Source: Anaerolineae bacterium (GTDB taxonomy: Bacteria; Chloroflexota; Anaerolineae; Aggregatilineales; UBA3940). From it: a stretch of DNA of 64,000 bases. Made by a program: the position numbers and the translations under genes. This document shows positions 15,846 to 34,648 of the stretch, piece after piece; position 1 is the stretch's first letter; every line of letters begins with the position of its first letter. The stretch is from the NCBI GenBank assembly GCA_016928235.1, contig JAFGLD010000096.1:3006-67005 (forward strand), given 5' to 3'. The notes below the pieces were generated by a model that saw nothing but the letters and a program-made list of their open reading frames with translations, made no database searches and was not told where the DNA came from.

Positions 15846-16868
15846 CTACTCTGCGCGCGGCTTACGCCGGTAGAGCCTGGTGACAACGGAGAAACGGTTG
15901 GGGATAATGGGGTCGTTAATACCTATTGGCAGCCCACCAAGTGGACTGGGCATAGGGATGGGATGGTAGACATAGTCGCGGATGCCACTATCCCAGCGCG
16001 ACAGCAAGACACTGAGCACCAGAACAAACACACCCACCCACTGGACGATCTCCATCCGTTCGCCCAGCCAGGTAAAAGCGACCAATAGCGTTACTCCCAT
16101 CTCTGCGACATTCAACAAAATCGTCTGAAGGCTGCCCAGATTTCTGACTCCCATAAACAGTGTCACTCGCGATAGCGCCGTAACAGCTGTGATACCCAGA
16201 ATATAGTACCAGCCTATCGAAGCAGTAGGCCCCCACTGCAAAACAAAGAAATTGCCATAAACCAGACGGGCAACAAGCACCGTTGCTCCCATCCAGGTCA
16301 ACGCATAAAGTGACATGGTGGGGGCGGGCATTTCATACATAACACGCTGGCTAATAACGATATGCAAAGCATAAGAAAAAGCAGATCCGACCATCAAGCC
16401 AACGCCTATCCAATGTATCGCTGACTGGTGGTAACCACCGGTCAGCAGATAGACAGCGACGAGTGCCAACAAAGCGCGGACGATGCTGAGCCCGGATATG
16501 CGTTGTCCATACATACGCACCAACAACATGGCGAAGATCACATACAACATGTTGAGGAGCTGTACCAGCGAGGCGTTATCCAGCAAGAGCAAGCCGTTGT
16601 AGTAAAGAAGCGAGCCTAATCCGTTAATCCCCCCAACAGCTAACGTTCCTAAGAGCCCTGCCGGGAAAATATAGATGTACTTCCGGAAGAACAACCCGTA
16701 CACTACCCACAATATCAGCGCGGCCAGACAAGTTCGTAACGTAACCAGCGTAAACGGATCGATGCCTGTGTGGAGGGCCAGTTTGCCAAAGATCGGCGCA
16801 AAACCCATGACAAGAGGCGTCATGAAGGCTGCAATTGCACCATCAATCCGATGCCTGGATTGGCTCAC
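15846..16868 (-). CDS. DMT-superfamily (EamA-like) transporter
   Basis: About 10 predicted TM helices in two EamA-like halves, followed by a ~50-aa hydrophilic tail. Confidence 0.7.
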   Translation of the reverse strand: MSQSRHRIDGAIAAFMTPLVMGFAPIFGKLALHTGIDPFTLVTLRTCLAALILWVVYGLFFRKYIYIFPAGLLGTLAVGGINGLGSLLYYNGLLLLDNASLVQLLNMLYVIFAMLLVRMYGQRISGLSIVRALLALVAVYLLTGGYHQSAIHWIGVGLMVGSAFSYALHIVISQRVMYEMPAPTMSLYALTWMGATVLVARLVYGNFFVLQWGPTASIGWYYILGITAVTALSRVTLFMGVRNLGSLQTILLNVAEMGVTLLVAFTWLGERMEIVQWVGVFVLVLSVLLSRWDSGIRDYVYHPIPMPSPLGGLPIGINDPIIPNRFSVVTRLYRRKPRAE

Positions 16869-18581: not shown

Positions 18582-18879
18582 TGGCTTGGACCTATCTAAG
18601 TTACATTCGATATGCAAGTTTTTGATACTGAGGGCAAATCGATGTGAATCCCGCAATATGTAAGCAAGTCATCCATTATCATTTCTTGCCGCATGCCCGA
18701 GATCGGGTCGGCGATCCCTCGTAGGGATGGGGCCGAGCCTATTCGTCGACAGCATCATGACCAGTCGTACAAGACATCGCACATCATTTTGTTACATCAA
18801 TACCAACCGGCTCATCAGGAAAGGGTGCAGGGCTTTATCCGCTCCGCACCCCTGATAACACCGTCATACAATCCCTATT

Positions 18880-21800
18880 TTATTTAGGAACTTTTTCCCA
18901 GGTAGTCGCCAATGCTGCCAGAAGCTGTTCCGGAGTAGCTTCGTTCTTGTTTAAATAAGCCGTTAACGATTCTCCCAATCGTTCCATAGCATCCCCGGGA
19001 AGCTCGCGGGATGAAACGATCAAGATAGGTAAATTTCGCGTCTGCTCCTGCGTCCGCAGTGAAGCCAGAAGACCATAGCCATCCATATCAGGCAGGTCCA
19101 GATCGACAATGAGTATGTCGGGCTTTTGTTCATGGAGCGTTTGTAGCCCTTCGTGTCCAAGCCCAACAACATTGGCATTATATCGCTGAGTGAGCAAGAG
19201 AGTCTCTTGCATGGTTCGAGCATATTGTTCATTACCATCGAGTATCAAGACAGATAATGCCTTCTCAACCATACCTCCCAATGCCCGGTTCAATGCCTCC
19301 AGCAGATCTTCCTCGATGATCGGTTTGACGAGATATTCCGTTACACCGACATTATTGGCTCGTTGGCGCGCATCTTCGATGCTACAGATGACGATGGGAA
19401 TATCGCGCGTGTCCTCTGCCTGTTTGAGTTGGTCGATGGCCACCCAGCCATCCACGTTCGGCATGTTGAGATCGAGCAGAATAGCGACCGGCTGAAACTC
19501 ACGCACCCTGTTGAGCAGATCGCCGGCGTTGCTTAAACCGACAATGGCATAACCCTGCTTTTCCAGATAGCGGCTGTATAAATCGAGAACGCCAGGCTCA
19601 TCGTCCACCGCCAACACCACTGGACGACCATCATCATTCTTTGGCAGGAACACAATATCAGAGCTCTCCTGCTGTTGTGCATGAAGCGGAACAGTAAAAC
19701 TGAATATTGAGCCGACACCTTTCTCGCTCTCGACCCACATCCGTCCGCCATGCATCTCGATGAACTGCCGGGAGATTGCCAAACCCAGACCCGTACCACC
19801 GACCTGTCGCGTTGTCGAGCCATCGACCTGACTGAAAGCCTGAAAGAGCTTGCCGATATCCTCTTGAGAAATACCGATGCCTGTATCGACAACATCGACC
19901 TGAACACGGGACGGCTCACCTGTCTCCGGGTCGTAATCCTTATGTGAAGCTCGAATAGTAATGCTACCTTCATGGGTAAATTTTGCGGCGTTAGCCACCA
20001 GGTTAAGCAAGACGCCCCGTACACGGACCGGGTCACCATACACATTGGGTAGATCGGCCTCTATCTCCTTGAAGATCTGGATCGGCTTATCACTGATCAA
20101 GCCCTGTCCGGTAGCCATCACGCCATCAACGATCTCAGGCAAGGAGATGTAATCCGGCTGAATCTCCATCTTGCCGGCTTCAATCTTGGAGATGTCGAGA
20201 ATATCGTTGATAAGCCCTAAAAGATGCTGGCCACTTTGATAGATGGTGTTCAGGTCCTGGGATTGCAGATCGCTGAGCGGGCCGTCGATCCCTTTCAACA
20301 TCACGCGGGAGAAACCAATGATCGAATTCAGCGGTGTACGGAGCTCATGGCTCATGTTGGCCAGGAACTGGCCCTTGAGCTTATCAAGCTCACGTAGCTG
20401 ATCGTTGGCTCGTGTGATCTGGTCGAGCAATCGGGCATTCTGGATAATGGCTGTCAGCGTGCTGGATGCCGCCTCCAAAAGACGCAGCTCCCGATCCCCA
20501 AAGACATTCACTTCCGAGCTGGCGAGCATCAGCACACCGATCGATTCGGCGCCTGCGCGGAGTGGAACGATCAGAGCTGCCTGAATGCGATCATCGAACT
20601 CACCATAGCGAGGATCTGTTTGTGTGTTAGGCGTGACCAGGGGAATACCATCCTCGGCTACCATACCAATGACAGTCTCTCCCAATTTGATCCGTGGATA
20701 GCGCACAGCAATGTCACGACCAAAGCCAACCGCAGCATGTGGCTCGAGTGTGTTGTCATCAGGACTAACCAGGTGGATGATGGCTGCCTCTGCCCCAGGT
20801 ATCTCGGTGAGGAGGATATTGGTTACGTTGGAGAGAGCTTCATCCAGTTCAGTCGTTGCGACAGCGGCTCTGGTGATATTGAACAGGAAACCAAGCTCAG
20901 ATGCGCGCCGCTGCGCTTCATCGAGCAGTTCAGCGTTACGGATCTTAACAGAGATATAGGCGGCCAGTGTGGTCAGTTGCCGGACATGTGTCTCGTTATA
21001 AGCGAATTCTCTATCCGGATCCTGGATGCTGATAACACCGATGATCTCATCACCTAGCAGGAGTGGAACAGCCAACAAGCTCTTAGGTATTGTTCCACTG
21101 ATTTGCGCGTCCAGTTTTTGAGCATTTTCTTGGACATTCTCATTAATCAGGAGAACCTCTCTGGTCTTCAGAACATAATTGGTCAGACCTTGTCCAATCG
21201 GGATAGCACCAATGGGAGGTATACGCTGACCGTTCTCCATGAAGATGGGAAGCTGGATCATGTCTTTTTCGGCAGACACAGCCAGGAAACCGTGCTGCGC
21301 GCCAAAAGTATGCTGCAATTGCGTAGCAACAACATCGTAGAGATCGCTTAAAGTCTCAGCGCGGGAAACGGCCTGAGAGATCAAGTTGACAGTGGTTAGC
21401 TCTGCCACACGATCCTGAATTTCCCGGAAGAGTTGGGCGTTTTCAAGCGTCACAGAAATCTGGTCAGCCAGCGACTGCAGGATAACCTGAGCCTCGGTAT
21501 CGAAAGCCTTGACTTGTGTACTCTGCACATCCAAAGCGCCAATAATCCGGTCACCCGTTCTGAGCGGTACGGCCATCTCGGCCCGCGTATTAGGTAATAG
21601 CTCATTGCGCTGGTGAATGGGATCTGTGTCGGTATCATGGATGATCACAGGTTCTCCTTGAGCCGTAACCTGCCCAATTACCGATTGCGACCCGACAGCC
21701 AATCTATGTTCACGCTGCAACAACTCCTGACCGATATCACCGGTGCTGGCATGCAGCATCGCCCATTCATTTGTATCATCGATCAAGAAAATCTGAGCAT

Positions 21801-24486
21801 GGTAATACCCAAACACTTCACTGATCTTATCCACCGTGAGAGGCAACAAGATATCCGGGTTGAGGATCGATGATGCAGCATGAGAGACTTCGTTGACCGC
21901 TTGCAAGCGACGGACACGCACCTGCGATTCGGAGAAGAGACGTAATCCTTCCAAAGCCGTAGCTGCCTGGTCGGCGATAGCTTCAAAAAAGCGCTGATCA
22001 GACTCCGCAAAGACATTAGTGTTATGCTGGCTATGTAGTAGCAACCAACCAAGAATACGCCCACCGGTAATCACAGGAAACTGGGCCATCGACTTAACAT
22101 TAAACCGCCTCAGAGTATCTCTGACATGATCTTCAAGAATGGCTGTTTCTGTGTTGTTGACAACCAGGCCGCTGCCTATCTCGTCCAGATCATATTCCAG
22201 CAATAATGGAAACTGCTCTACAAGCATACGCTCAGGCAGCGCCATCACCTGATCATTGGGATCTCCGGACCAGCGACCCAACAATTGCAACCATCGTCCT
22301 CCCTCTGTCATGCCGGATTCGTCGACCAGAACCACCATGGCACGGTCGATCGTACTACCGCGCATGGCGCCCAGCAGGACATTCGTGAGATTAGGTATGG
22401 AGTCAGCTGCCGCAATCTGCTGGCTTGCTTCGTAGAGTCGGTTGGACTCCATCAGAGAGGCCTGTGTCTGTTCAAAAAGACGCGCATTTTCGATGGCAAG
22501 CGCGACACGATCCAGCACCTGTCCAACCAATAGTCTGTCATCCTCAGAGATAACCTGGCCTGGTTGCAATCGTGTAGCCAATTCGCCGATAACCTCGCCA
22601 CGTAGCGCAATCGGCATATTCACGCGCTGTCCCCTGCCGCCATCTTCGTCATCAACCGGTGACAGTGGACGAACATCGCTCAAGTCATATTTGAAACCGA
22701 CTATTTCAGGCGATTGTTTGCGCCGTGAGACATAGGAGTCCCAGCTCTCGCGGGTAAGCGCCTGAGTCAGTTGGAGTGATGCGGCAAGCAAACTTTCTTT
22801 CTCTTGGAACAGATGAACATTACGAAACGCTGACGCAAGCTGATCTGCAATTGTCTTAAACGCCACAATCGTCTCGTCGTCAAAAGAATCAGGATGGACC
22901 GATTGTATATCCAATGCCCCGATAATCTCATCTCCTACACGCAGAGGAACAGCCAGCTCAGCACGTGTATCCGGTAACAGATCGTTGCGTCGATGGATAG
23001 GGCTATCCTCTGTATCAAGAACAAGAATGGGATCTCCATGCATCGTTGCCTGGCCAATAACTGACTGAGAGCCCACCTGAAGCTTATGGCCACGAGAAAG
23101 CAGCTCCCGGCCAACCGCGCCTGTACTCGCTCGCAGAACAGCATATTGATGCAGGTCATCTGTCATAAAAATCTGGACATGATAGTAATCCAGACGGTCA
23201 CGAATGGTATTAATGGTTGCAGTGAGCAGGCGGTCTAGATCAGTCTCGGTCGCCAGAACACGACTGATCTGGGATGTGATCTCAAGCTGTTGGTTGCGCT
23301 CAGTAATGGTTTTCTGGTGTTTTTCAAGCATTGAACGGGTGCGGCCAAGCATACGATTGAACGCATCTGCCAGCCGACTAAACTCAAGCGCATCGGTCAG
23401 GGGAGCCTCGATATCCATCTCGCCCCCGGCTGCCTGCATGGCAACTGCATATAGACGTTCGACAGGAGAAATAATGCGCCGCGCAAAGAAAACGGCCAAA
23501 ATGATCGCCAACAGGGCGATTATGGCGCCCAAAATTAACTGAGATCCCAGAATACTCTCTACTTCGCCGAGAACCGTTCCAGTATTTGTCGCAACGATGA
23601 GCGACATGTGCAGTGGCGCAATCCAACGATAAACGCCATAGACATGCTGCCCCCGATAGTCGACCCATTCACCTGAACCATCTTGTCCTGACAGCGCCGT
23701 GGCAACGATCTCTTCTTTGGCGAGATCGCCTGCAGCTTGCGGTGGCGGCATCACATAACGTCTTCCCTCCTCTACCAGATAATAATAGCTGGTCTCCGTC
23801 TGAGGAAGATCAAGCAAAATGACCAGAAGGTTTGAGAGCGTGACACGCCCACATAAGACACCAGTGGGAGAAGATGAGCCCTCCGGCTGCACAGCCACAG
23901 CAAAGTATAGACTTGGAACATCCTTCTCATAAGGATCTGCGATTGGCCCAACTGTTACCACTGTATCCGGATTCTGCAAGGCCGCTTGCAACCAAGGCTC
24001 TCCACTAAGATCCGGGTTGGCGAGGTTAAAAACAGGATCGTTGCCACCCAACAGCACTCCGTCAAGATCGACAAGAAACACACGGTCGTAAAGCCCTTGC
24101 ACGCTGGCAAGATAAGGGGTAGCAAGCGCGCTAATTCGTTCTGTAAAGGCTCGTTGCACCTCGGCCTTAGTGGTCGGATCTGCGTCTGGAGGCAAAGTAG
24201 TCAGCTGCTCGATCATAGGAGAAAGAGAAGGGTTGTCTCGGATTTTCAACAACTCAGTTTGACGTTCGGATGCCCATTTTTCTAGTACCGCCGTCTGGAT
24301 ATCCGCCATAGTGTCTAACTGGGTTATAGCCTTTGCTCGCTCGCGAGTCAGGTGGGTTATATTGCTAATTGCAATAAGCCCGGCTATCGGCAGCAAGATC
24401 AGAACAAGAAACACGATCAACAATTGTGTTCTTAAACGTCCCTGTCGTGGTATGAATCGGTTCTGCAATCGTCTTGTGCTACTCAT
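18880..24486 (-). CDS. multi-GAF hybrid sensor histidine kinase (TM - extracytoplasmic domain - TM - HAMP - about 7 GAF - HisKA - HATPase_c - REC - REC)
   Basis: 1868 aa. H-box FLANMSHELRTPLNSI (about 20341-20385). G-boxes DTGIGI / GGTGLGLAISR. REC1 about 19276-19623 (LAVDDE...LLDLNMPNVDG). REC2 about 18976-19257 (ILIVDLDLPDMDG). Repeated GAF cores include YYH(V/A)QIF...VGSQSVIGQ...LLP(D/N)TRAE(L/M)AVPL...IIGALD(I/V)QS. The start overlaps the upstream stop (ATGAGTAG). Confidence 0.9.
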   Translation of the reverse strand: MSSTRRLQNRFIPRQGRLRTQLLIVFLVLILLPIAGLIAISNITHLTRERAKAITQLDTMADIQTAVLEKWASERQTELLKIRDNPSLSPMIEQLTTLPPDADPTTKAEVQRAFTERISALATPYLASVQGLYDRVFLVDLDGVLLGGNDPVFNLANPDLSGEPWLQAALQNPDTVVTVGPIADPYEKDVPSLYFAVAVQPEGSSSPTGVLCGRVTLSNLLVILLDLPQTETSYYYLVEEGRRYVMPPPQAAGDLAKEEIVATALSGQDGSGEWVDYRGQHVYGVYRWIAPLHMSLIVATNTGTVLGEVESILGSQLILGAIIALLAIILAVFFARRIISPVERLYAVAMQAAGGEMDIEAPLTDALEFSRLADAFNRMLGRTRSMLEKHQKTITERNQQLEITSQISRVLATETDLDRLLTATINTIRDRLDYYHVQIFMTDDLHQYAVLRASTGAVGRELLSRGHKLQVGSQSVIGQATMHGDPILVLDTEDSPIHRRNDLLPDTRAELAVPLRVGDEIIGALDIQSVHPDSFDDETIVAFKTIADQLASAFRNVHLFQEKESLLAASLQLTQALTRESWDSYVSRRKQSPEIVGFKYDLSDVRPLSPVDDEDGGRGQRVNMPIALRGEVIGELATRLQPGQVISEDDRLLVGQVLDRVALAIENARLFEQTQASLMESNRLYEASQQIAAADSIPNLTNVLLGAMRGSTIDRAMVVLVDESGMTEGGRWLQLLGRWSGDPNDQVMALPERMLVEQFPLLLEYDLDEIGSGLVVNNTETAILEDHVRDTLRRFNVKSMAQFPVITGGRILGWLLLHSQHNTNVFAESDQRFFEAIADQAATALEGLRLFSESQVRVRRLQAVNEVSHAASSILNPDILLPLTVDKISEVFGYYHAQIFLIDDTNEWAMLHASTGDIGQELLQREHRLAVGSQSVIGQVTAQGEPVIIHDTDTDPIHQRNELLPNTRAEMAVPLRTGDRIIGALDVQSTQVKAFDTEAQVILQSLADQISVTLENAQLFREIQDRVAELTTVNLISQAVSRAETLSDLYDVVATQLQHTFGAQHGFLAVSAEKDMIQLPIFMENGQRIPPIGAIPIGQGLTNYVLKTREVLLINENVQENAQKLDAQISGTIPKSLLAVPLLLGDEIIGVISIQDPDREFAYNETHVRQLTTLAAYISVKIRNAELLDEAQRRASELGFLFNITRAAVATTELDEALSNVTNILLTEIPGAEAAIIHLVSPDDNTLEPHAAVGFGRDIAVRYPRIKLGETVIGMVAEDGIPLVTPNTQTDPRYGEFDDRIQAALIVPLRAGAESIGVLMLASSEVNVFGDRELRLLEAASSTLTAIIQNARLLDQITRANDQLRELDKLKGQFLANMSHELRTPLNSIIGFSRVMLKGIDGPLSDLQSQDLNTIYQSGQHLLGLINDILDISKIEAGKMEIQPDYISLPEIVDGVMATGQGLISDKPIQIFKEIEADLPNVYGDPVRVRGVLLNLVANAAKFTHEGSITIRASHKDYDPETGEPSRVQVDVVDTGIGISQEDIGKLFQAFSQVDGSTTRQVGGTGLGLAISRQFIEMHGGRMWVESEKGVGSIFSFTVPLHAQQQESSDIVFLPKNDDGRPVVLAVDDEPGVLDLYSRYLEKQGYAIVGLSNAGDLLNRVREFQPVAILLDLNMPNVDGWVAIDQLKQAEDTRDIPIVICSIEDARQRANNVGVTEYLVKPIIEEDLLEALNRALGGMVEKALSVLILDGNEQYARTMQETLLLTQRYNANVVGLGHEGLQTLHEQKPDILIVDLDLPDMDGYGLLASLRTQEQTRNLPILIVSSRELPGDAMERLGESLTAYLNKNEATPEQLLAALATTWEKVPK

Positions 24487-26680
24487 AGCTGTCGTCCAGT
24501 TTCTCTCGCCGCAACTGTACGCTGGTTTGAGGAGCGCGTAACACGCGGCCTAATTCCTTCACGGTTGTTTGTAAAATTTGATTCACATCAGTAGTGCCGA
24601 CGATCTTTGCTGTGATGGCATTGATAATCTGCTCATGCTCGGCCCGGCGAGCAGTCTGCTCCATCAAACGCAGGTTCTCGAGTGCCAGCCCCACACGGTC
24701 GATCACTGCCTCAACCAGGGCAACATCGTCACCCGTTAACTTTCTAACCGTCTCGCCACCAAAACCAAAAGCTCCAATAACTTCACCGCGCACCTTGATT
24801 GGCACAGCCAGACTAATACCGTCTTCACCATCATCAAGTGACACCAACTGCCCACTCCGAACAGCTTGTCCCATCGGAGACGGGGATCGATTGGTGAATG
24901 GCTCGATCCTCTCATCCTCAAACTCATAGGCAAGCGGTACATCCGCATCGTGCGACTGACGATAGGCGTTCCAGGCTTCAGCTGTGATGCGGCGTTCCAG
25001 CATCTCTATGTTATCCAGAGCGTCCTTTAGCTCTCCGTGTAAACGAGCATTCTCCAGTGCAATAGCAAGCTGGTCAGCCATAATTTGAAAAACAGCCACA
25101 TCGTCCTGGTCGAAAGCATTAGGCGCGACACTCTGCAAATCCAGTGCTCCAATGACCTCATCACCAATGCGCATGGGTAGAGCCATTTCAGAGCGCGTAT
25201 CCGGCAACAGCTCATTGCGCCTATGGACCGCACTACTATCTGTATCGGAGGCAATGACTGGCTCACCGCGCGATGTCACCTGTCCAATGACTGACTGTGA
25301 GCCAACTGATAGTGCATGTCTGCGAGCCAGCAGTTCACGCCCGGCAGTACCCGTGCTGGCTGTCAATACAGCATTTTCTTTTTTGTTGTCAACCAGGAAT
25401 ATCTGAGCATGATAAAAGCCAAAGCGATGCCGAATCAACTCTACAATTTCATTCATCAAATCGCGAGGGTCACGCAATGTCACCACAGCTCGCCCAATAT
25501 CACCTGTGATGCTCAGCTCTCTCGTGCGCTCTGCTACCCGCTGTTCCAATCCGGTGATCAACCCATCAAGTTGGGTTACCAGCACATTGAAACTGTCGCC
25601 CAATTGACTAAACTCATCCTTGCCTTCAACACTTATCCGTGTCTGTAGATTGCCTGCCGAGATACGCCTGGACGCGTCGAGTATCCCCCATAGATTTCGA
25701 GAGATATCACGGCCAAACACCATGGGGATAAACCCACTCGCTACAATCCCCACAGCCATCACAATCATCAAGAAGATACGCTGACTATTGAGTGTAGCCA
25801 TCATGATATCAAGCGGAGAACCAACTCTATCTTCTACAACATTGTTGAGACGTGAAGTTTCGTTACGTAAGTCCGACAATGCGTTTTGAGCAGTATTGCC
25901 GATAACATCAATTTGCTCAACCTGGACAACGATGGATGACGCATTCTCTCGATACACCTGCAATAACTCGGCTTCATTACGTCTTCGATCCTCTGGGATT
26001 TGAGATTCGTAAATCTCCTGATATTTGACAATGGCTTGCTGGAAGACTATATAATCTTCCGACGCTTCTGATTGAATCACCACAGTCTCTAATGTACGCA
26101 AGGTATCTGCCTGACTGTTTAGAGATGCATCGTTTAATCTGGCCGTTGCAGTTCGTAATTGTTCCCCGGACTGCCGGAAACGGGTAATTGTACCGGAATC
26201 TGATGATGACAACTGTTGAACCAAGGCAATAATATTCAGGAAACTGACCCTTGAGGTGTTAGCCTTAGATTTAATGACATCTACTTGTGCCTGGAGCGCC
26301 CCGTGAGTTGCGTTGTCCGGAAGCCTTGCGCTGAGTTCCAGGAGTTGCTCTGTGTGTCCATTGAGGCTTTCGCTGATGTCAATATAGTTCGGAGGCAACG
26401 ATAGGATCAGCGGATCGAGGCCCGGCTGTCGATATTCATTGAGCAGCCTGTTCTGTAGACTCTGAAGACTCTCGACCTCTAACTGAATGTCTTGCGCCAG
26501 CGAACGCATCTCAATAGTCAACGCCATCGTGTTGTCCATTTGACGCCGGACAGCATTCAAAGCCAATAGACTTGACGACATCATCAAGGCAGTGAGTATC
26601 ATGAGCGAGACAGAAAGCAAAGCTGACTTTACTTGAATGGACAAGTTACGCCAGACAAAGAATTTATAGAAATGCTGCAC
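24479..26680 (-). CDS. output-less sensor: TM - ~270-aa helical extracytoplasmic domain - TM - HAMP - GAF - GAF - truncated GAF stub
   Basis: 733 aa with a GTG start after GGGAGG. GAF core FGFYHAQIFLVDN...VGSQSVIGQVT...HRRNELLPDTRSEMALPM...VIGALDLQS. I saw no kinase, cyclase or HTH motif. Confidence 0.85.
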   Translation of the reverse strand: MQHFYKFFVWRNLSIQVKSALLSVSLMILTALMMSSSLLALNAVRRQMDNTMALTIEMRSLAQDIQLEVESLQSLQNRLLNEYRQPGLDPLILSLPPNYIDISESLNGHTEQLLELSARLPDNATHGALQAQVDVIKSKANTSRVSFLNIIALVQQLSSSDSGTITRFRQSGEQLRTATARLNDASLNSQADTLRTLETVVIQSEASEDYIVFQQAIVKYQEIYESQIPEDRRRNEAELLQVYRENASSIVVQVEQIDVIGNTAQNALSDLRNETSRLNNVVEDRVGSPLDIMMATLNSQRIFLMIVMAVGIVASGFIPMVFGRDISRNLWGILDASRRISAGNLQTRISVEGKDEFSQLGDSFNVLVTQLDGLITGLEQRVAERTRELSITGDIGRAVVTLRDPRDLMNEIVELIRHRFGFYHAQIFLVDNKKENAVLTASTGTAGRELLARRHALSVGSQSVIGQVTSRGEPVIASDTDSSAVHRRNELLPDTRSEMALPMRIGDEVIGALDLQSVAPNAFDQDDVAVFQIMADQLAIALENARLHGELKDALDNIEMLERRITAEAWNAYRQSHDADVPLAYEFEDERIEPFTNRSPSPMGQAVRSGQLVSLDDGEDGISLAVPIKVRGEVIGAFGFGGETVRKLTGDDVALVEAVIDRVGLALENLRLMEQTARRAEHEQIINAITAKIVGTTDVNQILQTTVKELGRVLRAPQTSVQLRREKLDDSYE

Positions 26681-26825
26681 TACGCAACCTCCCAGTATAC
26701 CTAACGAGACATCTCACTCATATTTCACGAGGACAAAGGCCTGATGACAATTCCTTAGGTTCTGTTGACATTCGTGCTCAAAATCCGCGCCCTGGATATA
26801 CAGAAATGTCAACAAAACCTAGAAA

Positions 26826-28607: not shown

Positions 28608-30867
28608 TGGTTATTCCTCCATCGCCGCCTCTGCCCAGGGAACCCGGCACATCGGAAACATCCTCTGCGTCGGCCCCCCCATCTGCAAAACCGGACGATA
28701 TCTGGCGACCATCCCGGGCCGGGAGCCCACCGATCCGCAATGATACACGATCAGAGCCAAGGGCTGCGCTAAGCTCGTTTAGCGCACTACGCAGCACAGT
28801 GTCGACGCTACTAGCACGTTGTAACAGGTTAGCGGAAACTTCATTAACGCGTTGTTCACGCTCCACACGTTGGGTTGATTCTTCAACCAGGCGAATACCC
28901 TCAGCAATGATACCCATACGAGCCGCAATAGATTCCAAGAGCAGCACTTCATCCCGTGTCCAGATTTCACCTGACGGGCGTGTGACAGCTAATGTTCCTA
29001 CGGTTTCACCGCGTGAGACCAGTGGCGCGGCCAATACAGAGCGTCCATCAGCATCAGTGTACACATCAGCCTTGATATCACGACTCTGGCGAGCCTCCTC
29101 CAGCACTTGAGGCCAGTGTTCTTCAGGATCAAGAGTACGTCGCAGCGCCCCTCCCTCCCCCATAAACTCTTCCCAGGCCTGTCGTGTAAGGCGCCGGTTC
29201 AACGCCTCAATCTCCGCCAGATTGGCAGCACTTTGCTCAAATAGACGGGCATTCTGTATAGCTGCGCTTAGCTGATCTGTAATCAGCCGTAAAACATTCA
29301 TGTCTTCGCGGCTGAAATCCCGCATACGATTAGAAATCAAGTGGACAGAACCCGCTGCCTCGCCGCCTATCTGAATGGGGAGGGTCATTTCCGAGTATTT
29401 GGCATTTGGGCCAGGCTCACGAATTTCCTCTTTACCGGCGCTAATCAGCGCTTCATTCAGCAATATTGAACGTCCTACCAGGGTCGCATCATCTATCTCA
29501 ACACGAAAGCCCGTTTGTAACAAACGCTCACTCTCCTCGCCTGCTGCCGCCTGCAACCGAGCACGCTTTCCTGACGAATCAACAAGGAAGATACGAACAT
29601 CCTGGTAATGGAAGTACCTGCTGAGCGAGAGAACTACCTCCTCCAGCATCTTATCGATTTCAAGTGTTATCATGGTAGTGTGCGACACTTGAAGCGCCGC
29701 GCGCAGTTGCTCTATCCGGTTCAGTAATCCGGCTATTGCATCACTTAGTATCTGAGATAATCGGCCAATCTCATCAGGAGGGAACTGTGGGAAAGGTGTG
29801 CTCAATTCCCCTTGTCTTATTTCCTCAACAACATCCACCAAACGACCCAAGGGCAACATCAGGGAACGCGCAAAGAAAAACATGAGCACCGCAACCAGGA
29901 TCGCGCCAATGACAGTCATCCAACGCAGCACCTCTGCCACTCGTGTAACGCCAGACAAAGATGTGTCAGCAGATTGACGTATTGCGAAAATCCAGGGCAA
30001 GTTACTAAGAGTGGGATCGCCACTTTCAATGTCTGCCATACTGATATGACTATAAAGCCAGTTATCTTTGGAAAGAAAAGCTCCTGATGGTAAGTTCCCA
30101 GTCAACTCTACCGGAATATCGACGCCGTCCATTCCACTCTGGGCAGACACAACTGTGCCATTCTGCTCGATGATCAGCATCTGCGTCCGATCCGTTGTTA
30201 CTGGCGGTTGCACATTCCACACAGCATAGATGACACCTATGGCAACCCTCGATGCTTCTGAGCTGTAAATAGGGACAGCAATATGTACACCTGTTTTTTC
30301 CGTGAATGGGTCATCCACATGCCCGGCAACATATGTTGCTCCCCTTCCATTATTCCAGGCATAGGTGTACCAATCCCAAAGCATCGCCGGCATTTCACGG
30401 CTATCGAAACCTTCCGGAAGCCCGCCAATCCCCATCGATAAGACATGCCCACTACTGTCGAGCACAACAATAGCCTCAAATTCCTTGTGGTCTTCCATAA
30501 AGCCAGTGATCACCGGATCAAGCGTCGGAGAAGATACCAATACTGGTCCCGTCGCAGCCTCTGAGTCGACATCCTGCCGTCGCCCTACTACGCGCTCAAT
30601 GCGTGCATCGGCACCCAATTGCTCTAGAACAAGGATATCGTGCTGCAAGGCCTTTATGACATAAAGAGCCTGGCTGTGGTTGACATCTTGCAAATCACCC
30701 AGAGCCAGGTCGATCTGGGCATTGCGCAATGCCTGTTGGACCACGAAATTGATGATCAACCCACCGATTAGCAAACCAAGCGCCAAACCAAGCACGAGCT
30801 TGAATGCAATAGGATACCCTCGTGGGTGCAAACGACTTGCCAGTGTACTCTCTTTCATAGCCATCAT
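28600..30867 (-). CDS. output-less sensor: TM - ~280-aa extracytoplasmic (Cache-like) domain - TM - HAMP - divergent GAF - GAF - truncated GAF stub
   Basis: 755 aa. The HAMP-like segment follows the second TM (MTVIGAILVAVLMFFFA). GAF cores YQDVRIFLVDS and RGETVGTLAV. The start overlaps the upstream stop by 1 nt (TGATG). Confidence 0.8.
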   Translation of the reverse strand: MMAMKESTLASRLHPRGYPIAFKLVLGLALGLLIGGLIINFVVQQALRNAQIDLALGDLQDVNHSQALYVIKALQHDILVLEQLGADARIERVVGRRQDVDSEAATGPVLVSSPTLDPVITGFMEDHKEFEAIVVLDSSGHVLSMGIGGLPEGFDSREMPAMLWDWYTYAWNNGRGATYVAGHVDDPFTEKTGVHIAVPIYSSEASRVAIGVIYAVWNVQPPVTTDRTQMLIIEQNGTVVSAQSGMDGVDIPVELTGNLPSGAFLSKDNWLYSHISMADIESGDPTLSNLPWIFAIRQSADTSLSGVTRVAEVLRWMTVIGAILVAVLMFFFARSLMLPLGRLVDVVEEIRQGELSTPFPQFPPDEIGRLSQILSDAIAGLLNRIEQLRAALQVSHTTMITLEIDKMLEEVVLSLSRYFHYQDVRIFLVDSSGKRARLQAAAGEESERLLQTGFRVEIDDATLVGRSILLNEALISAGKEEIREPGPNAKYSEMTLPIQIGGEAAGSVHLISNRMRDFSREDMNVLRLITDQLSAAIQNARLFEQSAANLAEIEALNRRLTRQAWEEFMGEGGALRRTLDPEEHWPQVLEEARQSRDIKADVYTDADGRSVLAAPLVSRGETVGTLAVTRPSGEIWTRDEVLLLESIAARMGIIAEGIRLVEESTQRVEREQRVNEVSANLLQRASSVDTVLRSALNELSAALGSDRVSLRIGGLPARDGRQISSGFADGGADAEDVSDVPGSLGRGGDGGITNV

Positions 30868-32726
30868 CAGGCTCTCACTTCCTCAGACTTGCCAGATATC
30901 GGCCTCTCATCCGTAGGACCCTTTTCTTCTCTGGCTGTCTCAGCATCTTTGTTGCTATCGGATACATTTTTACCGCTTTGTGAAATGGGGTGATCCATGC
31001 TGATCTCTGCATACACATTATCGGTGCCCAGTGCTTGCGACAGTTCCCTGGTAGCACTTTCCAGCAATAACGCCAGGCTGGGGGCACGCTGTAATCGCGA
31101 GGCAATGGTATTGATCAGATATTCTCGGTTAGCAGCACGTTGAGCCTGCAGATAGAGACGAGCATTTTCGACTGCCAGCGCCGCTCTTTCTGCTATCCCC
31201 TGGATCAGAAGCAAGTCATCCTGAGACCATTCCCGTGTATCGTCCGGCTCGACGCCGATCACACCAACTACTTCATTGCGTACGACAATCGGAGCTGCCA
31301 GGAATGCCTTCCTTCCATCGGCTCCAGAAGAGACAATAACCGAGCCGGAGCCAAGCACACGCTCGACGACACGGCTGCGGTGTATTTCCATTGCCTTCGA
31401 TTCCACCCCATGGACCTGCCGACGCTCTTCCTGCCGAGTCTCCGACAGGAAATCAATCCAGGACCGATGTGTTGTCGTACGGCTGAGCTCGCTTAGCTCG
31501 CGCAGGTTCTCTTCGGCCATCTCAAATAACTGTGCATTCTTGATCGCAACAGCAAGCTGATCGGCCAGGGCCCGAAATGTGGGGAACATCTCCTCTTCGA
31601 AGGCATCCGGCTCGACACTTTGCAGATCAAGAGCGCCAATGACCTGGTTGCCAACGATCAGGGGAATTGCCATCTCGGAGCGAGTCAGCGGCAACAATTC
31701 GTTGCGACGATGTATAAAGTCCGTGTCTGTATCCCTGGCAATTACAGGTCTGCTACTGGCTGTTACCTGCCCGATGACACTCAAACTACCCACCGGGAGA
31801 CGATGTCCACGAGCCAACAGAGCTTTCCCGACGTCGCCGGTACTCTGTCGCAAGACCGCATATGACTCTTCCGCGTCGACCAGAAAAACTTGAACATGAT
31901 AATATCCAAACGTCTCACGAATGAGACGCACAATATCTTCCATAAGCTGGTCAAGGTTGCGTGCCCCGGCCACGGTACGAGCTACCGATGTCGTTGCCTG
32001 AAGCTGGCGTGTCTGTGTTTGAAGGCGAGCCTCCATCTCGTGGCGCTGTTCGACAATCGCCAAATTCAATTTAGAACTTTCCTGAAATGCCTGTCGCATA
32101 GTACGCGAGAACAGCCAGGAAATGACTGCCACAAAGAATAGATTGACATAAACCAGGAGTGTCTGTGATGATGCGCCGCCAGCAAAAATGGTGTGTGTGT
32201 ACTCAGGCTCAATCCGAAGATTGAGGACAAAGTAGGCAGTTCCGGCCAGAATAGCCACCACTACAGCCGAGAAAGGCGGACCAAAGAAACCCGCAACAAT
32301 AACAGGGACTGTAATCGAGAGAGCTGTTGCCGTCATCGGCCCGGTTTGTTCAACCAATGCAATGGAAAGGCTCAGGAGCGCCACCGACAATAGCATACCG
32401 GCGGCAGTGGTCAGTCCTCGTCGGTTAAGGATATAGAGGAATACCCACACAACAGTCAATACAATGCCATAAGAGATCGTTATACCAGAAATACGTACTG
32501 CCAGATCGATCGAGTTGACATTATGCGCCACAATTGCCGCAATCAACGTCAACAACTCGGTAAGAATCAGAACGACAGCCAACAAACGTCCCTGGCGTGC
32601 CTGACCCGATGCAGGGGACTGAGATCGCAGCAACCAATCGATTGCATTTTTCCAGAAAGATGGGTTAGGAGAGGTTTTGTTATCAGTCATAGGTTCCCTG
32701 TGAAGGTCATCCCTTGAATGTGTCAT
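30867..32726 (-). CDS. output-less sensor: about 6-7 TM helices - GAF - GAF - truncated GAF stub
   Basis: 619 aa. GAF core FGYYHVQVFLVDA...VGSLSVIGQVT...HRRNELLPLTRSEMAIPL...VIGALDLQS. The start may instead be the ATG at 32690. Confidence 0.85.
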   Translation of the reverse strand: MTHSRDDLHREPMTDNKTSPNPSFWKNAIDWLLRSQSPASGQARQGRLLAVVLILTELLTLIAAIVAHNVNSIDLAVRISGITISYGIVLTVVWVFLYILNRRGLTTAAGMLLSVALLSLSIALVEQTGPMTATALSITVPVIVAGFFGPPFSAVVVAILAGTAYFVLNLRIEPEYTHTIFAGGASSQTLLVYVNLFFVAVISWLFSRTMRQAFQESSKLNLAIVEQRHEMEARLQTQTRQLQATTSVARTVAGARNLDQLMEDIVRLIRETFGYYHVQVFLVDAEESYAVLRQSTGDVGKALLARGHRLPVGSLSVIGQVTASSRPVIARDTDTDFIHRRNELLPLTRSEMAIPLIVGNQVIGALDLQSVEPDAFEEEMFPTFRALADQLAVAIKNAQLFEMAEENLRELSELSRTTTHRSWIDFLSETRQEERRQVHGVESKAMEIHRSRVVERVLGSGSVIVSSGADGRKAFLAAPIVVRNEVVGVIGVEPDDTREWSQDDLLLIQGIAERAALAVENARLYLQAQRAANREYLINTIASRLQRAPSLALLLESATRELSQALGTDNVYAEISMDHPISQSGKNVSDSNKDAETAREEKGPTDERPISGKSEEVRA

Positions 32727-32989
32727 TCAAGAGCCCGCAAAAAAATTCTTATTATGCCACCGAGACGAGCCTGCATTCAACGATAATCTTTACCCTGGTT
32801 CATGATGTTAATCCCCCTGTTAGGGCATGAACGGGCAGTGATGAGATTGTGTTGTTTGTATTTTGCTCAAAAAGCGCACTTTCTCTAACAAGCATACACC
32901 AGTTTTAATACCTGTTGAATCGCGGGCCTTTTGCCACCATTTCCACATAAGCAAACGTGCTGTGAACAGAGCCACGCCTTCTAAATGGG

Positions 32990-34648
32990 TTACTTTTCGT
33001 CTTTCTTCTTTTCCGTGTCGTACTCCATAACCAGATGAACAAAACTCGTCGGCGTTTCCAGCGCATGGCTAGCCGTTCTGGCAACAATACGAAGAAGCGT
33101 GTTCAAGTCAGTGGTAGACTGAAGCTCCGCAGAGAGGCGGCTCATCACCTCCTCACGCTCGGCATGATGCTGAGCTTGCTCACCCAGGCGTGTGCTGTCC
33201 AGCGCCATCGCGACACGCTCCGCTACCGCTTCAAGCATGTTCTTAGTTTCTTCATCGGGCTCACGGTCACCCCGCGGTGTCAGATCCAACATCCCGATCG
33301 TCTCACCTCGAACCGTTAAGGGGAGCGTCACTGTCCCGCCACCAGGCTGTCCGCCCTCGGAACCCTCAGAGGCTTCGATTTGCGGTTTGGCCTCACCCAC
33401 ATCATCGACTTTGAGCGGCCTGACCCCTTGCTGACTGGCTTCATAACCCAGAGGCGATTCGCCGGGACGGTCTGATAGAAATTTACGCCATGATTGCCCG
33501 GTAAGCTGCCGATTCAGGGACTCGATATCTTGCAGGTCGCGCTGGGCACGCTCAAACAAATGCACATTCTCAATTGCAATAGCGATCTGATCTGCCATGG
33601 CCTGGAAACCGGAGATATCCGATGCCGCAAAAGCTTCGACGCTGGTGCTGTGAATATCGACCACACCAATTACCTGATTTTCCACTCGCAGCGGCAAGGC
33701 TATCTCAGAGCGGGTACCGGACAGCAAATCGTTGTGTTGATACGCCGGATAAACACTGGTATTGGGGATGATAACTGTCTCGCCGCTTTGGATAACCTGA
33801 CCAATCACTGATTGGGATTTGATGGGTATCTGGTATAAGCGCGAGACCAGTTCCTGCCCTATTGAGCCTGTGCCGGCCTTAATGACCGCGCTCCTCTTTC
33901 CTTCATCGATCAGAAGGATTTGTGCATAGTAAACATCGAATCGCTCAGAGATCAGATCGACAGCTTGTTTGAGCAAATGATCCAGGTTGCGAGTGCCTGT
34001 AATCGTACGCCCAATCTCGGCCACAGCCATGATTTTTCGAGCATCACCATCTGGAGCTTGATCCGTCTGATGCAAATCAGATATTTGCTGCTGGATCAAT
34101 CGCAAATCACGTTCCCTCAAAAGCGATGTTCCTACCGCCATGGCAGACACAATAACCGTGATCAGGAGTGAGAAATAGTACTGTCCTATGTTGGATTGTG
34201 GAATGAGCACAAGACCAAGCCCGACTCCCAAATTGGCGATCACAACGGACACGATTGTTGTTCGCGCGGGTAAAAGGAGCATGGCAAACAAGATCGGGAC
34301 CAAGACAAAAAGCGAAGCCTGAGATAGATTAACATGGTCGCGAAGGATATACAGATTGGCCAGCACCAGAGCCAGTTCCCCAAACACCAGTAAACCGGCT
34401 CCCAGTTTTGCCTGGCGTATACGACTTAACAGGTAGACAAGTAGGAAGAGAATGGGATGTGGTAAGGCTAAAACAGCCAGCGAGGTGAAGGCCAAACCAA
34501 TGGCAACCAACACACTTACAAGAAACAACACCAGTGACAATCGGGATAACAGGCGTGCCCGCTGTCTTTGTATGGGTTCCGTTACACTGGAATGTGGCTC
34601 TGTTAGCCGTTGCCACAGGGTTTGAGTGGTAAATTCTTGCATGCTCAT
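32990..34648 (-). CDS. output-less sensor: about 6 TM helices - GAF - GAF - truncated GAF stub
   Basis: 552 aa. GAF core FDVYYAQILLIDE...KSQSVIGQVI...HNDLLSGTRSEIALPL...VIGVVDIHS. Confidence 0.85.
   Translation of the reverse strand: MSMQEFTTQTLWQRLTEPHSSVTEPIQRQRARLLSRLSLVLFLVSVLVAIGLAFTSLAVLALPHPILFLLVYLLSRIRQAKLGAGLLVFGELALVLANLYILRDHVNLSQASLFVLVPILFAMLLLPARTTIVSVVIANLGVGLGLVLIPQSNIGQYYFSLLITVIVSAMAVGTSLLRERDLRLIQQQISDLHQTDQAPDGDARKIMAVAEIGRTITGTRNLDHLLKQAVDLISERFDVYYAQILLIDEGKRSAVIKAGTGSIGQELVSRLYQIPIKSQSVIGQVIQSGETVIIPNTSVYPAYQHNDLLSGTRSEIALPLRVENQVIGVVDIHSTSVEAFAASDISGFQAMADQIAIAIENVHLFERAQRDLQDIESLNRQLTGQSWRKFLSDRPGESPLGYEASQQGVRPLKVDDVGEAKPQIEASEGSEGGQPGGGTVTLPLTVRGETIGMLDLTPRGDREPDEETKNMLEAVAERVAMALDSTRLGEQAQHHAEREEVMSRLSAELQSTTDLNTLLRIVARTASHALETPTSFVHLVMEYDTEKKKDEK

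What the first reader, a model, noticed from the sequence alone, without database searches (positions are those of the whole stretch)
20400..34000. One GAF subtype recurs about seven times with a near-invariant pocket-like motif
Seen in the sequence: the blocks (F/Y)YH(A/V)Q(I/V)F(L/M).D, VGS(Q/R/L)S(V/I)(I/V)GQ(V/A)T..G.P(V/I) and H(R/Q)RN(E/D)LLP(D/N/L)TR(A/S)E(M/L/V)A(V/L/I)PL..G...IGALD(V/L/I)QS recur across the array.
- They occur twice in the kinase.
- They occur once each in the 733-, 593-, 619- and 552-aa paralogues (the 552-aa copy is more diverged).
- They occur in degenerate form in the 755-aa protein.
- The second GAF of each pair (consensus around P(I/L).(V/I)RGE(V/T)(I/V)G.L) is much less conserved.
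Inference: the invariant residues may line a common ligand pocket, so all members may read the same small molecule while their N-terminal modules differ. Alternatively they may form a shared dimer interface. The paralogy also creates repeated DNA segments that could support gene conversion or recombination.
Basis: partly seen in the sequence, partly recalled or inferred. Interest (0 to 1): 0.55.

Follow-up and report, generated by a model that had tools for sequence, protein, structure and literature searches.

The report
Shared pocket-type GAF sensor domain array
Seven copies of one uncharacterised GAF sensor-domain subtype, with a cysteine-free version of the methionine-sulfoxide-reductase pocket, sit in an ancient ten-gene signalling cluster conserved in Anaerolineae, where they probably give differently wired receptors one shared intracellular metabolite input.

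Summary
One GAF subtype ("GAF-A") occurs twice in the 1868-aa hybrid kinase, once each in the 733-, 593-, 619- and 552-aa proteins, and in degenerate form in the 755-aa protein. A profile of it scores 234-260 bits on the six intact copies, 72 on the degenerate one and 11-35 on the other GAFs of the same proteins.

The motif is not private to this array. It is the signature of a large, unstudied family centred on Chloroflexota: 11,738 50%-identity clusters at E<=1e-30.

The closest solved structures are free methionine-R-sulfoxide reductase (fRMsr) and PtsP GAF domains. The conserved residues align one-to-one with fRMsr active-site positions, but the catalytic Cys is Asn and the resolving Cys residues are gone. 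A non-catalytic ligand pocket, possibly for an amino-acid-like metabolite, is therefore the best reading. It rests on homology only, because no model coordinates were available.

The gene-conversion idea is refuted:
- DNA identity between copies is at most 73% over 128 bp or less.
- The longest shared exact word is 14 nt.
- Every copy is closest to its positional orthologue in another genome.

The whole array is syntenic in distant Anaerolineae. It comprises six output-less GAF proteins, the kinase, a ThrC-like-REC fusion and an EamA exporter. All six accessory proteins end in a conserved, undescribed 47-aa module.

The parts
18880..24486 (-). 1868-aa hybrid histidine kinase: dCache, HAMP, GAF-A1, GAF-B, GAF, GAF-A2, GAF, GAF, HisKA, HATPase_c, two REC domains
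22810..23280 (-). GAF-A copy 1 of the kinase (aa 403-559), full signature
   Evidence: 254 bits; coordinates
21430..21900 (-). GAF-A copy 2 of the kinase (aa 863-1019), full signature
   Evidence: 252 bits
24479..26680 (-). p733: TM, helical ectodomain, TM, HAMP, GAF-A, coil, GAF-B, C-terminal module; no enzymatic output
25040..25510 (-). GAF-A of p733 (aa 391-547). Signature residues: Y423 H424 Q426 F428 S461 S463 G466 Q467 H486 N489 L491 L492 P493 T495 R496 E498 D514 Q516 S517
   Evidence: 260 bits; domain-only AF2 model pLDDT 90; Foldseek
24665..24931 (-). GAF-B of p733 (aa ~584-672): compact GAF-like domain carrying the P(I/L)x(V/I)RGE(V/T)(I/V)G block. Pfam GAF profiles match only its C-terminal half
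26826..28607 (-). p593: multi-TM N-terminus (weak MASE6), GAF-A, GAF-B, C-terminal module
27486..27977 (-). GAF-A of p593 (aa 211-374), with a 7-aa insertion after beta1
   Evidence: 234 bits
28600..30867 (-). p755: dCache-like, HAMP, degenerate GAF-A, GAF-B, C-terminal module
29242..29694 (-). Degenerate GAF-A of p755 (aa 392-542). Pocket signature lost except the Glu; the same is true of both orthologues
   Evidence: 72 bits
30867..32726 (-). p619: multi-TM N-terminus, GAF-A, GAF-B, C-terminal module
31527..31997 (-). GAF-A of p619 (aa 244-400)
   Evidence: 255 bits
32990..34648 (-). p552: multi-TM N-terminus, GAF-A, GAF-B, C-terminal module
33557..34027 (-). GAF-A of p552 (aa 208-364), more diverged (H34->Y, Q126->H, P103->S)
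   Evidence: 240 bits
34683..36698 (-). p671: soluble multi-GAF protein without GAF-A but with the same C-terminal module; first gene of the accessory array
24509..24649 (-). Conserved C-terminal 47-aa module of p733 (aa 678-724). The same module lies at 26916-27053 (p593), 28732-28872 (p755), 30999-31139 (p619), 33032-33169 (p552) and 34758-34892 (p671)
   Evidence: 65-74 bits each; alignment; coordinates
16920..18656 (-). Threonine-synthase-like PLP enzyme fused to a C-terminal receiver domain; directly downstream of the kinase and syntenic with it
15846..16868 (-). EamA-family transporter; syntenic
36860..38038 (-). Receiver-domain protein with a P/A/E/K-rich repeat N-terminus, upstream of the array
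38132..38911 (-). Receiver-domain protein with a QPASPP-type repeat tail

Best explanation
GAF-A is a cytoplasmic, non-catalytic small-molecule-binding GAF domain of the fRMsr/PtsP structural clade. Its conserved residues form the pocket face of the beta-sheet (H424, Q426, F428, E498, D514, Q516 in p733) and the lid over it (S461, S463, G466-Q467, H486, N489, LLP, T495-R496).

The pocket is a cysteine-free derivative of the free-methionine-sulfoxide-reductase active site. It keeps the acidic residues that recognise the free amino acid, so the ligand is most likely a small polar metabolite such as an amino acid or a related acid.

In this cluster the kinase and four accessory receptors each combine a different membrane or periplasmic sensor with the same intact GAF-A. 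Each would therefore gate or integrate its own external signal with one common intracellular cue. The p755 lineage has lost the pocket.

The signal would pass along the coiled-coil helices to GAF-B. In the accessory proteins it would then reach a shared 47-aa C-terminal module that presumably docks on a common partner. In the kinase it would reach HisKA/HATPase and from there the receiver proteins, including the ThrC-like-REC enzyme.

Shown: the recurrence, the family membership, the fold neighbours, the residue equivalences, the absence of Cys, the synteny and the ancient age. Inferred: that a cavity exists, that a ligand binds, the ligand class, and the wiring.
For: - GAF-A is a distinct subtype: 234-260 bits on the intact window copies against 10-56 bits for the other GAFs in the same proteins. 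The signature residues are absent from those other GAFs.
- The AF2 domain model has pLDDT 90 and pTM 0.86. Its best Foldseek PDB hit is N. meningitidis fRMsr with substrate bound (3mmh: E 3.5e-11, TM 0.81, rmsd 2.0). PtsP GAFs follow (3trc TM 0.87; 3ci6), then more fRMsr entries (4mmn, 3rfb, 1f5m, 3ksf, 1vhm) and the NifA GAF (8jrc). Sequence-profile searches give the same neighbours.
- Alignment to 3mmh places GAF-A H34 on the fRMsr Trp, F/Y38 on the Tyr, G76-Q77 on G-Q, H96 on the His of the H[I/V]xC motif, N99 on the catalytic Cys, R106-S107-E108 on R-S-E, and D124 and Q126 on the D-x-D pair. [quoted passage not shown]
- The PtsP GAF binds glutamine (PMC4848567).
- The signature residues are invariant across 82 p733 orthologues that share 38-77% overall identity.
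- In 651 family copies the six signature residues are kept or lost together: 240 copies have all six and 95 have one or none, against 3.7 expected if independent.
- Most invariant columns lie on beta1, alpha3, the lid loop and the last two strands, not on the terminal helices.
- Stand-alone 220-250-aa proteins made only of GAF-A plus the C-terminal module exist on long contigs. This fits a sensor-plus-output unit.
- The neighbourhood has an amino-acid theme: ThrC-like-REC, EamA, and LysE in L003.
Against: - No coordinates could be examined, so neither a cavity nor burial of the conserved residues was measured. The mapping is by alignment at 14-22% identity.
- No family member has a known ligand or a solved structure; the best PDB sequence E-value is only about 1e-10 to 3e-12.
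- The lid loop is predicted with fairly high confidence without any ligand, which would also fit a permanently closed, purely structural lid.
- Family-wide, the most conserved positions are P112, G121 and F133 and the alpha5 helix, not the pocket residues.
- The kept-or-lost-together pattern is confounded by overall divergence.
- Proteins carrying 2-9 strong copies in tandem are hard to explain as repeated sensing of a single ligand.
Confidence: 0.5

Rival explanations
1. GAF-A is a ligand-free transmitter. Like the GAF-like domain between the S-helix and DHp of NarX/NarQ, it only relays conformational change from HAMP or the TM helices along the coiled coil. The conserved lid and sheet residues would form an internal hydrogen-bond and salt-bridge network (for example R496 with E498 or D514) that sets its two signalling states.
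For: - GAF-A always sits directly after HAMP or the TM segment and is flanked by long helices.
- NarX/NarQ GAF-like domains are thought to act as transmitters with no evidence of independent sensing (PMC8199190).
- The alpha5 helix is the most conserved element family-wide.
- Tandem arrays of 2-9 copies look more like relay or scaffold units.
- The lid is modelled confidently without ligand.
Against: - The conserved set is rich in buried-type polar and charged residues and coincides position by position with a real substrate-binding site.
- In NarX-type kinases the GAF-like region is less conserved than the protein overall, the opposite of what is seen here.
- The p755 lineage has lost the signature but keeps the fold and the alpha5 helix, so the signature is not needed for folding or relay.
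- Stand-alone GAF-A-plus-module proteins have nothing upstream to relay.
Confidence: 0.28
2. GAF-A senses a metal ion or another inorganic or redox cue through its His, Glu and Asp residues (H424, H455, H486, E498, D514), in the manner of the non-haem iron site proposed for the NorR GAF.
For: Three His and two acidic residues are conserved in the window copies. Weak NCBIfam matches to NorR and FhlA GAF regions occur.
Against: - Position 96 is mostly Phe family-wide (His in only about 16% of copies) and His65 is present in only 60%, so a His triad is not a family feature.
- There are no Cys residues.
- The nearest structures are amino-acid or oxo-acid binders, not metal sites.
Confidence: 0.08
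3. The listed blocks form a shared protein-protein interface that lets the accessory proteins heterodimerise with the kinase through GAF-A.
For: The kinase carries the same GAF-A/GAF-B cassette as the accessory proteins. Hetero-oligomerisation would explain output-less receptors sitting next to a kinase.
Against: GAF dimers use the N- and C-terminal helices (PMC8199190). The listed blocks lie on strands, alpha3 and the lid on the opposite face. Heterodimerisation through alpha1 and alpha5 remains possible, but it would not explain these blocks.
Confidence: 0.1
4. The similarity reflects recent duplication or gene conversion among tandem paralogues rather than selection on function.
For: Tandem arrangement of paralogues on one strand.
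Against: - The best DNA matches are 67% over 317 bp, 73% over 128 bp and 72% over 121 bp. The longest shared exact word is 14 nt.
- Each copy is more similar to its positional orthologue in L001 than to any window paralogue (7 of 7), and the best L003 match is the positional orthologue for the six copies that could be tested.
- The array is syntenic in genomes whose p733 orthologues are only 41-47% identical.
Confidence: 0.02

Closest known systems
Free methionine-R-sulfoxide reductase (fRMsr/MsrC; PDB 3mmh, 1vhm, 1f5m, 3ksf, 4mmn)
   Same: Top structural neighbour (TM 0.81, rmsd 2.0) and among the top sequence hits. Shared pocket layout: an aromatic or His position on beta1, G-Q on alpha3, the His of the HxxC motif, R-S-E on the next-to-last strand and IGxLDx(D/Q)S on the last strand.
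   Different: The catalytic Cys is replaced by Asn and the resolving Cys residues by Ile and Lys. No window copy contains any Cys. The second Asp is Gln and the Trp is His. GAF-A is embedded in large membrane signalling proteins and is not a ~165-aa enzyme. It therefore cannot use the thiol-based reductase mechanism.
GAF domain of PtsP / EI-Ntr (PDB 3trc, 3ci6), a glutamine sensor
   Same: Highest TM-score (0.87) and full-length sequence alignment. It is a regulatory, non-catalytic GAF that binds a free amino acid (PMC4848567).
   Different: PtsP lacks the TRSE, D.QS and H.RN signature (alignment) and is fused to PEP-utilising domains.
GAF domains of sigma-54 activators (NifA 8jrc, Nlh2 4g3v, 3k2n)
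   Same: Similar fold (TM 0.76-0.78). NCBIfam NifA matches of 36-49 bits for p593, p619 and p552, 22 for p755 and 134 for the kinase; p733 had no NifA match. They are metabolite-responsive regulatory GAFs; 2-oxoglutarate binding by NifA is from my own knowledge.
   Different: All matches are far below the family cut-off of 529 bits. There is no AAA+ or DNA-binding output, and the signature residues are not shared.
GAF-like transmitter domain of NarX/NarQ-type kinases
   Same: The same position in the architecture: sensor, TM, HAMP, helix, GAF, helix (PMC8199190).
   Different: NarX/NarQ GAF-like regions are reduced, poorly conserved and not recognised by Pfam. GAF-A is a full GAF and the best-conserved part of these proteins.
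Tandem-GAF sensor proteins of cyanobacteria (cyanobacteriochromes, e.g. 8w26, 6oap)
   Same: Many GAFs in tandem joined by helical linkers. The C-terminal module resembles the linker plus first helix of such GAFs.
   Different: No bilin-binding Cys. The match is limited to the generic C-terminal half and the linker.

Membership tests
GAF domain superfamily (Pfam GAF_2 PF13185 / GAF PF01590) | Significant match to the Pfam models above the gathering score | tested here: met
   GAF_2 scores 60.6-98.5 bits for the five accessory proteins that carry GAF-A and 257 bits for the kinase (cut-off 28.6)
GAF domain superfamily (Pfam GAF_2 PF13185 / GAF PF01590) | GAF fold: antiparallel sheet flanked by N- and C-terminal helices on one side and a lid on the other | tested here: met
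   AF2 pLDDT 90 with helix, two strands, helix, strand, helix, strand, loop, two strands, helix; 431 PDB matches at E<=0.001, the listed top 50 all GAF-type entries
fRMsr (free methionine-R-sulfoxide reductase) | Catalytic Cys in the H[I/V]xCD motif | tested here: not met
   The aligned position is Asn in all intact copies (H-R-R-N)
fRMsr (free methionine-R-sulfoxide reductase) | Resolving Cys residues (yeast Cys91/Cys101) | tested here: not met
   No Cys in any window GAF-A; the aligned positions are Lys/Arg and Ile
fRMsr (free methionine-R-sulfoxide reductase) | Substrate-binding Trp66, Tyr70, Glu132, Asp149, Asp151 (yeast numbering) | tested here: inconclusive
   Glu and the first Asp are kept. 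Tyr is Phe here and Tyr in most of the family. Trp is His and the second Asp is Gln
PtsP/EI-Ntr GAF | N-terminal GAF fused to PEP-utilising enzyme domains | tested here: not met
   No PEP-utiliser domains in any protein of the array
PtsP/EI-Ntr GAF | Glutamine binding | not testable with these tools
   Needs biochemistry
cNMP-binding GAF (PDE2/5/6/10, CyaB, Lcd1) | NKFDE signature and close similarity to cNMP-bound GAFs | tested here: inconclusive
   After the last strand the sequence reads S-V-A-P-N-A-F-D-Q-D-D. N, F and D/E-like positions are present but there is no Lys. cNMP GAFs rank lower: 5w10 at rank 11, 2zmf at rank 48, 1mc0 at E 7e-3
Bilin-binding GAF (phytochrome/cyanobacteriochrome) | Conserved chromophore-binding Cys in the GAF | tested here: not met
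   No Cys in the window copies. Matches to 8w26, 2lb5 and 6oap cover only the generic C-terminal half and the linker
Haem-binding GAF (DosS/DosT/DevS) | Proximal His and overall similarity | tested here: inconclusive
   Only weak matches (E 6e-4 to 1e-3) over the C-terminal half. The proximal His position was not mapped
Nitrate-binding GAF (NreA) | Match to NF038250 above the cut-off of 175 bits | tested here: not met
   Only p552 (17 bits) and p671 (16 bits)
Chloroflexota GAF-A subfamily (defined here) | Signature YH.(Q/H).(F/Y)L.D ... S.(V/I) ... N.LLP.TRSE.A.PL..G..IG.LD.QS ... F ... A.Q.A.A..NA.L | tested here: met
   Six window copies carry it. The family consensus comes from 651 copies in 149 representatives. 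11,738 representative proteins match at E<=1e-30

The most novel reading that the evidence does not exclude
The cluster is an undescribed Chloroflexota signalling machine. Six output-less receptors and one giant hybrid kinase all read one intracellular amino-acid-type metabolite through a cysteine-free, fRMsr-derived pocket. The receptors converge on a common partner through a new 47-aa C-terminal module. The output is phospho-control of a threonine-synthase-like enzyme and export of its product by EamA. This would be a feedback or cell-to-cell metabolite signalling loop in filamentous Anaerolineae.
Probability: 0.1. Interest if true: 0.8.

Novelty: new variant of a known kind. Interest (0 to 1): 0.45.

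Why it matters
GAF domains are among the commonest bacterial sensor modules, yet few have known ligands.

This work defines a very large subfamily that is annotated only as 'GAF domain-containing protein'. It contains about 11,700 clusters at 50% identity and is centred on Chloroflexota. The work also gives a concrete, testable hypothesis for its pocket: an enzyme active site (fRMsr) recycled into a binding site, with Cys replaced by Asn.

Anaerolineae are abundant in wastewater, sediments and anammox communities. Their signalling appears to be essentially unstudied: nothing on this domain subtype or gene cluster turned up in the literature searches.

A conserved ten-gene cluster with six enzyme-less receptors, a shared C-terminal module and a PLP-enzyme response regulator would be a good entry point. 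One ligand screen on a 160-aa domain could annotate thousands of proteins.

Tried and rejected
- Gene conversion or recent duplication: rejected. BLASTN self-comparison, longest shared word and orthologue-versus-paralogue identities all argue against it.
- fRMsr enzyme activity: rejected, because there are no Cys residues.
- Bilin-, nitrate- (NreA) and PtsP-type membership: rejected on defining features.
- Haem- and cNMP-type pockets: weak evidence only, left inconclusive.
- The idea that the C-terminal module folds back to complete GAF-B (circular permutation or split GAF): the full-length AF2 monomer shows it as a continuation of the alpha5 helix plus a short helix, at low confidence (pLDDT about 50-65). 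It is neither supported nor excluded.
- Promoter and terminator scan of the array: at chance level.
- Literature searches for this GAF subtype, for MadS, and for ThrC-REC fusions found nothing relevant.
- The primary fRMsr structure papers (PMC2915739, PMC1887594, PMC2915740) are not held. Detailed roles of the individual fRMsr residues therefore rest and on my own knowledge.
- Model coordinates are not exposed, so no cavity or burial calculation could be done.

Full report
**What is there.** The region holds a co-directional, tightly packed gene array on the minus strand:
- a 671-aa soluble multi-GAF protein (34683-36698);
- proteins of 552, 619, 755, 593 and 733 aa;
- an 1868-aa hybrid histidine kinase (18880-24486).

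Neighbouring genes overlap by 1-8 bases at three junctions, which suggests one operon. Pfam finds only sensor and transmitter domains in the six smaller proteins: dCache, HAMP, weak MASE6 and GAF. It finds no enzymatic output. The kinase has dCache, HAMP, several GAFs, HisKA, HATPase_c and two receiver domains.

**Checking the observation.**
- An alignment of the seven segments reproduces the consensus. Excluding the 755-aa copy, 29 columns are invariant.
- A profile of the subtype, here called GAF-A, separates cleanly. It scores 234-260 bits on the six intact window copies and 192-237 on their orthologues. It scores 72-80 bits on the 755-aa lineage and 10-56 bits on all other GAFs of the same proteins.
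- Those other GAFs share only generic GAF positions and none of the signature residues.
- GAF-A is more conserved between paralogues than the following linker plus second GAF: 46% against 30% mean identity.

The only quibble is that the last copy ends at 34027.

**Age and origin of the copies.**
- DNA similarity between copies is low. The best matches are 67% over 317 bp, 73% over 128 bp and 72% over 121 bp, and the longest shared exact word is 14 nt.
- The window matches a contig of an Anaerolineae MAG; P0104 is 100% identical to p733 over 96% of its length.
- p733 has more than 80 full-length orthologue clusters at 38-77% identity.
- In two distant genomes, whose p733 orthologues are 47% and 41% identical, the whole array is syntenic gene for gene. 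The order is REC protein, multi-GAF protein, 537/550 aa, 607/626 aa, 745/778 aa (dCache-HAMP), 550/578 aa, 727/738 aa, 1858/1873-aa kinase, PALP-REC, EamA.
- Every window GAF-A is closest to its positional orthologue, not to a window paralogue.

The duplications are therefore ancient, the copies are individually maintained, and there is no sign of concerted evolution.

**How general the motif is.** An exhaustive HMMER search of 1.84 billion representative proteins with the six-copy profile found 68,565 proteins at E<=1e-3, 31,675 at 1e-10 and 11,738 at 1e-30. The top hits are 1,200-3,500-aa proteins carrying 2-9 strong copies each.

The consensus of 651 copies from those proteins is F.lYHahIYLlD ... 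SlV ... DV ... flpNPLLPdTRSElAvPL.vGd.vIGVLDVQS ... naFteeD ... TLAdQiAvAiqNARL.

Named members are all Chloroflexota, mostly Anaerolineae, and are annotated only as 'GAF domain-containing protein'. No member has a solved structure; the best PDB sequence E-values are only 3e-12 to 1e-10. I found no literature on the family.

**What kind of GAF it is.** A domain-only AlphaFold2 model is confident (pLDDT 90, pTM 0.86). Its best Foldseek match in the PDB is N. meningitidis free methionine-R-sulfoxide reductase with substrate bound (3mmh, TM 0.81, rmsd 2.0). The glutamine-sensing PtsP GAFs follow (3trc TM 0.87; 3ci6), then further fRMsr entries and sigma-54-activator GAFs including NifA. cNMP, bilin and haem GAFs rank lower. 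Sequence profiles agree.

Aligning 3mmh to the family profile gives a one-to-one correspondence:

| fRMsr | GAF-A |
|---|---|
| F-G-W-F-W-V-G-F-Y-L-V-D | F-G-F-Y-H-A-Q-I-F-L-V-D |
| G-V-C-G-Q | S-V-I-G-Q |
| H-I-A-C | H-R-R-N |
| S-R-S-E | T-R-S-E |
| I-G-V-L-D-A-D-S | I-G-A-L-D-L-Q-S |

In yeast numbering, Trp66, Tyr70, Glu132, Asp149 and Asp151, together with catalytic Cys125 in H[I/V]xCD and resolving Cys91/Cys101, are the residues reported for substrate binding and catalysis. In GAF-A they correspond to His, Phe/Tyr, Glu, Asp, Gln, Asn, and Lys/Ile.

The pocket architecture is therefore retained while every cysteine is gone. GAF-A cannot be a thiol reductase, but it keeps the features of a small, polar, closed binding site. 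From my own knowledge, the Glu and Asp residues of fRMsr hold the alpha-amino group of free Met-SO. PtsP's GAF binds glutamine (PMC4848567). An amino-acid-like ligand is thus the most economical guess.

**Pocket or interface.** Twenty of the 29 invariant columns lie on beta1, alpha3, the lid loop and the last two strands or just after them. Five more lie in the beta2-alpha2 region. Only four lie in the terminal helices, and GAF domains dimerise through their N- and C-terminal helices (PMC8199190). The listed blocks therefore fit a pocket better than a dimer interface.

The alpha5 helix (A.Q.A.A..NA.L) is separately, and even more strongly, conserved family-wide. It is the likely signalling or dimerisation helix.

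The signature residues are invariant in 82 p733 orthologues. In the wider family they are kept or lost together: 240 of 651 copies have all six and 95 have one or none, against 3.7 expected if independent. That pattern is confounded by overall divergence.

The 755-aa lineage lost nearly the whole signature in all three genomes while keeping the fold and alpha5. The signature is therefore not needed for folding, which argues for a specific function.

**Limits.** I could not obtain model coordinates, so no cavity was measured. The residue mapping rests on alignments at 14-22% identity, and no ligand is known. A ligand-free transmitter role, as proposed for NarX/NarQ GAF-like domains, remains a serious rival. 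Tandem arrays of many copies also fit it.

**System context.**
- All six accessory proteins, including the 671-aa one that lacks GAF-A, end in a conserved 47-aa module: (A)ERExx(I/V)NxI..., LQ, D..L..A..EL..ALG.....V.L. The kinase lacks it.
- In the fetched proteins, 224 of 236 matches to this module lie within 70 aa of the C-terminus. It also ends giant multi-GAF-A proteins and stand-alone 220-250-aa 'GAF-A plus module' proteins.
- The module resembles the linker and first helix of a cyanobacteriochrome-type GAF, cut off after the first strand. It has no Pfam match.
- Downstream of the kinase, and syntenic with it, are a threonine-synthase-like PLP enzyme fused to a receiver domain and an EamA transporter. 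A LysE transporter follows in one genome. The PLP enzyme scores 260 bits against a cut-off of 303, matches PDB 1uim at 1e-40, and has the SFKDR lysine.
- Upstream are two receiver proteins with low-complexity repeat tails.

This suggests, as inference only, that the cluster integrates several external inputs with one intracellular metabolite and controls an amino-acid-related enzyme and exporter.

**Verdict.** The pocket reading is favoured by homology. The 'same ligand' idea is plausible but untested. Gene conversion is refuted. The motif is generic to a large uncharacterised family.

I rate this a new variant of a known kind: a GAF sensor with a cysteine-free fRMsr-type pocket, in a conserved multi-receptor cluster. 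Interest is moderate.

Noticed in passing
window 24509-24649, 26916-27053, 28732-28872, 30999-31139, 33032-33169, 34758-34892 (minus strand): All six output-less GAF proteins end in a conserved ~47-aa module with no Pfam match. It looks like the first helix to first strand of a cyanobacteriochrome-type GAF, cut short. It is almost always C-terminal (224 of 236 matches). It also ends giant multi-GAF proteins and stand-alone 220-250-aa 'GAF-A + module' proteins such as P0411. The kinase lacks it. It may be a docking or output element.
   Followed up: partly
window 16920-18656 (-); L001 17917-19587; L003 17854-19527: A threonine-synthase-like PLP enzyme with an N-terminal Cys-rich ribbon, the SFKDR lysine and a C-terminal receiver domain. 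It scores below the ThrC equivalog cut-off (260 against 303 bits). It always lies directly after the kinase and before an EamA exporter (plus LysE in L003). No literature on such a fusion was found.
   Followed up: partly
window 36860-38038 (-) and 38132-38911 (-): Two receiver-domain proteins with long low-complexity repeat regions. One has a P/A/E/K-rich N-terminus with near-exact 'ESRPAEAGSKPAVEAK' repeats. The other has a QPASPP(T/E)xG repeat tail. No output domain was recognised in either.
   Followed up: no
window 29242-29694 (-); L001_745 aa 391-542; L003_778 aa 409-560: The dCache-HAMP paralogue (755 aa) carries a GAF-A that has lost nearly all pocket-signature residues, including a deletion of the H.RN segment. 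The same degenerate state is conserved in both orthologues. It looks like a long-maintained 'blind' copy.
   Followed up: yes
proteins P0224-P0372: The GAF-A family is dominated by giant 1,200-3,500-aa Chloroflexota proteins with 2-9 strong GAF-A copies in tandem (up to 15 GAF-like stretches). Some end in the 47-aa module instead of an enzymatic output.
   Followed up: partly
window 24479-24486, 28600-28607, 30867: Start and stop codons of adjacent genes overlap (kinase/p733, p593/p755, p755/p619). This is consistent with translational coupling in one operon. Promoter and terminator consensus scans inside the array were at chance level.
   Followed up: partly
window 24665-24931 (-) and equivalents in the other paralogues: The 'second GAF' is a compact GAF-like domain of about 90-100 aa that follows a conserved coiled-coil segment with a W..(Y/F) motif. 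Pfam GAF profiles match only its C-terminal half. It is well conserved among orthologues (invariant W, P-I-x-V-R-G...G) but only about 30% identical between paralogues.
   Followed up: partly
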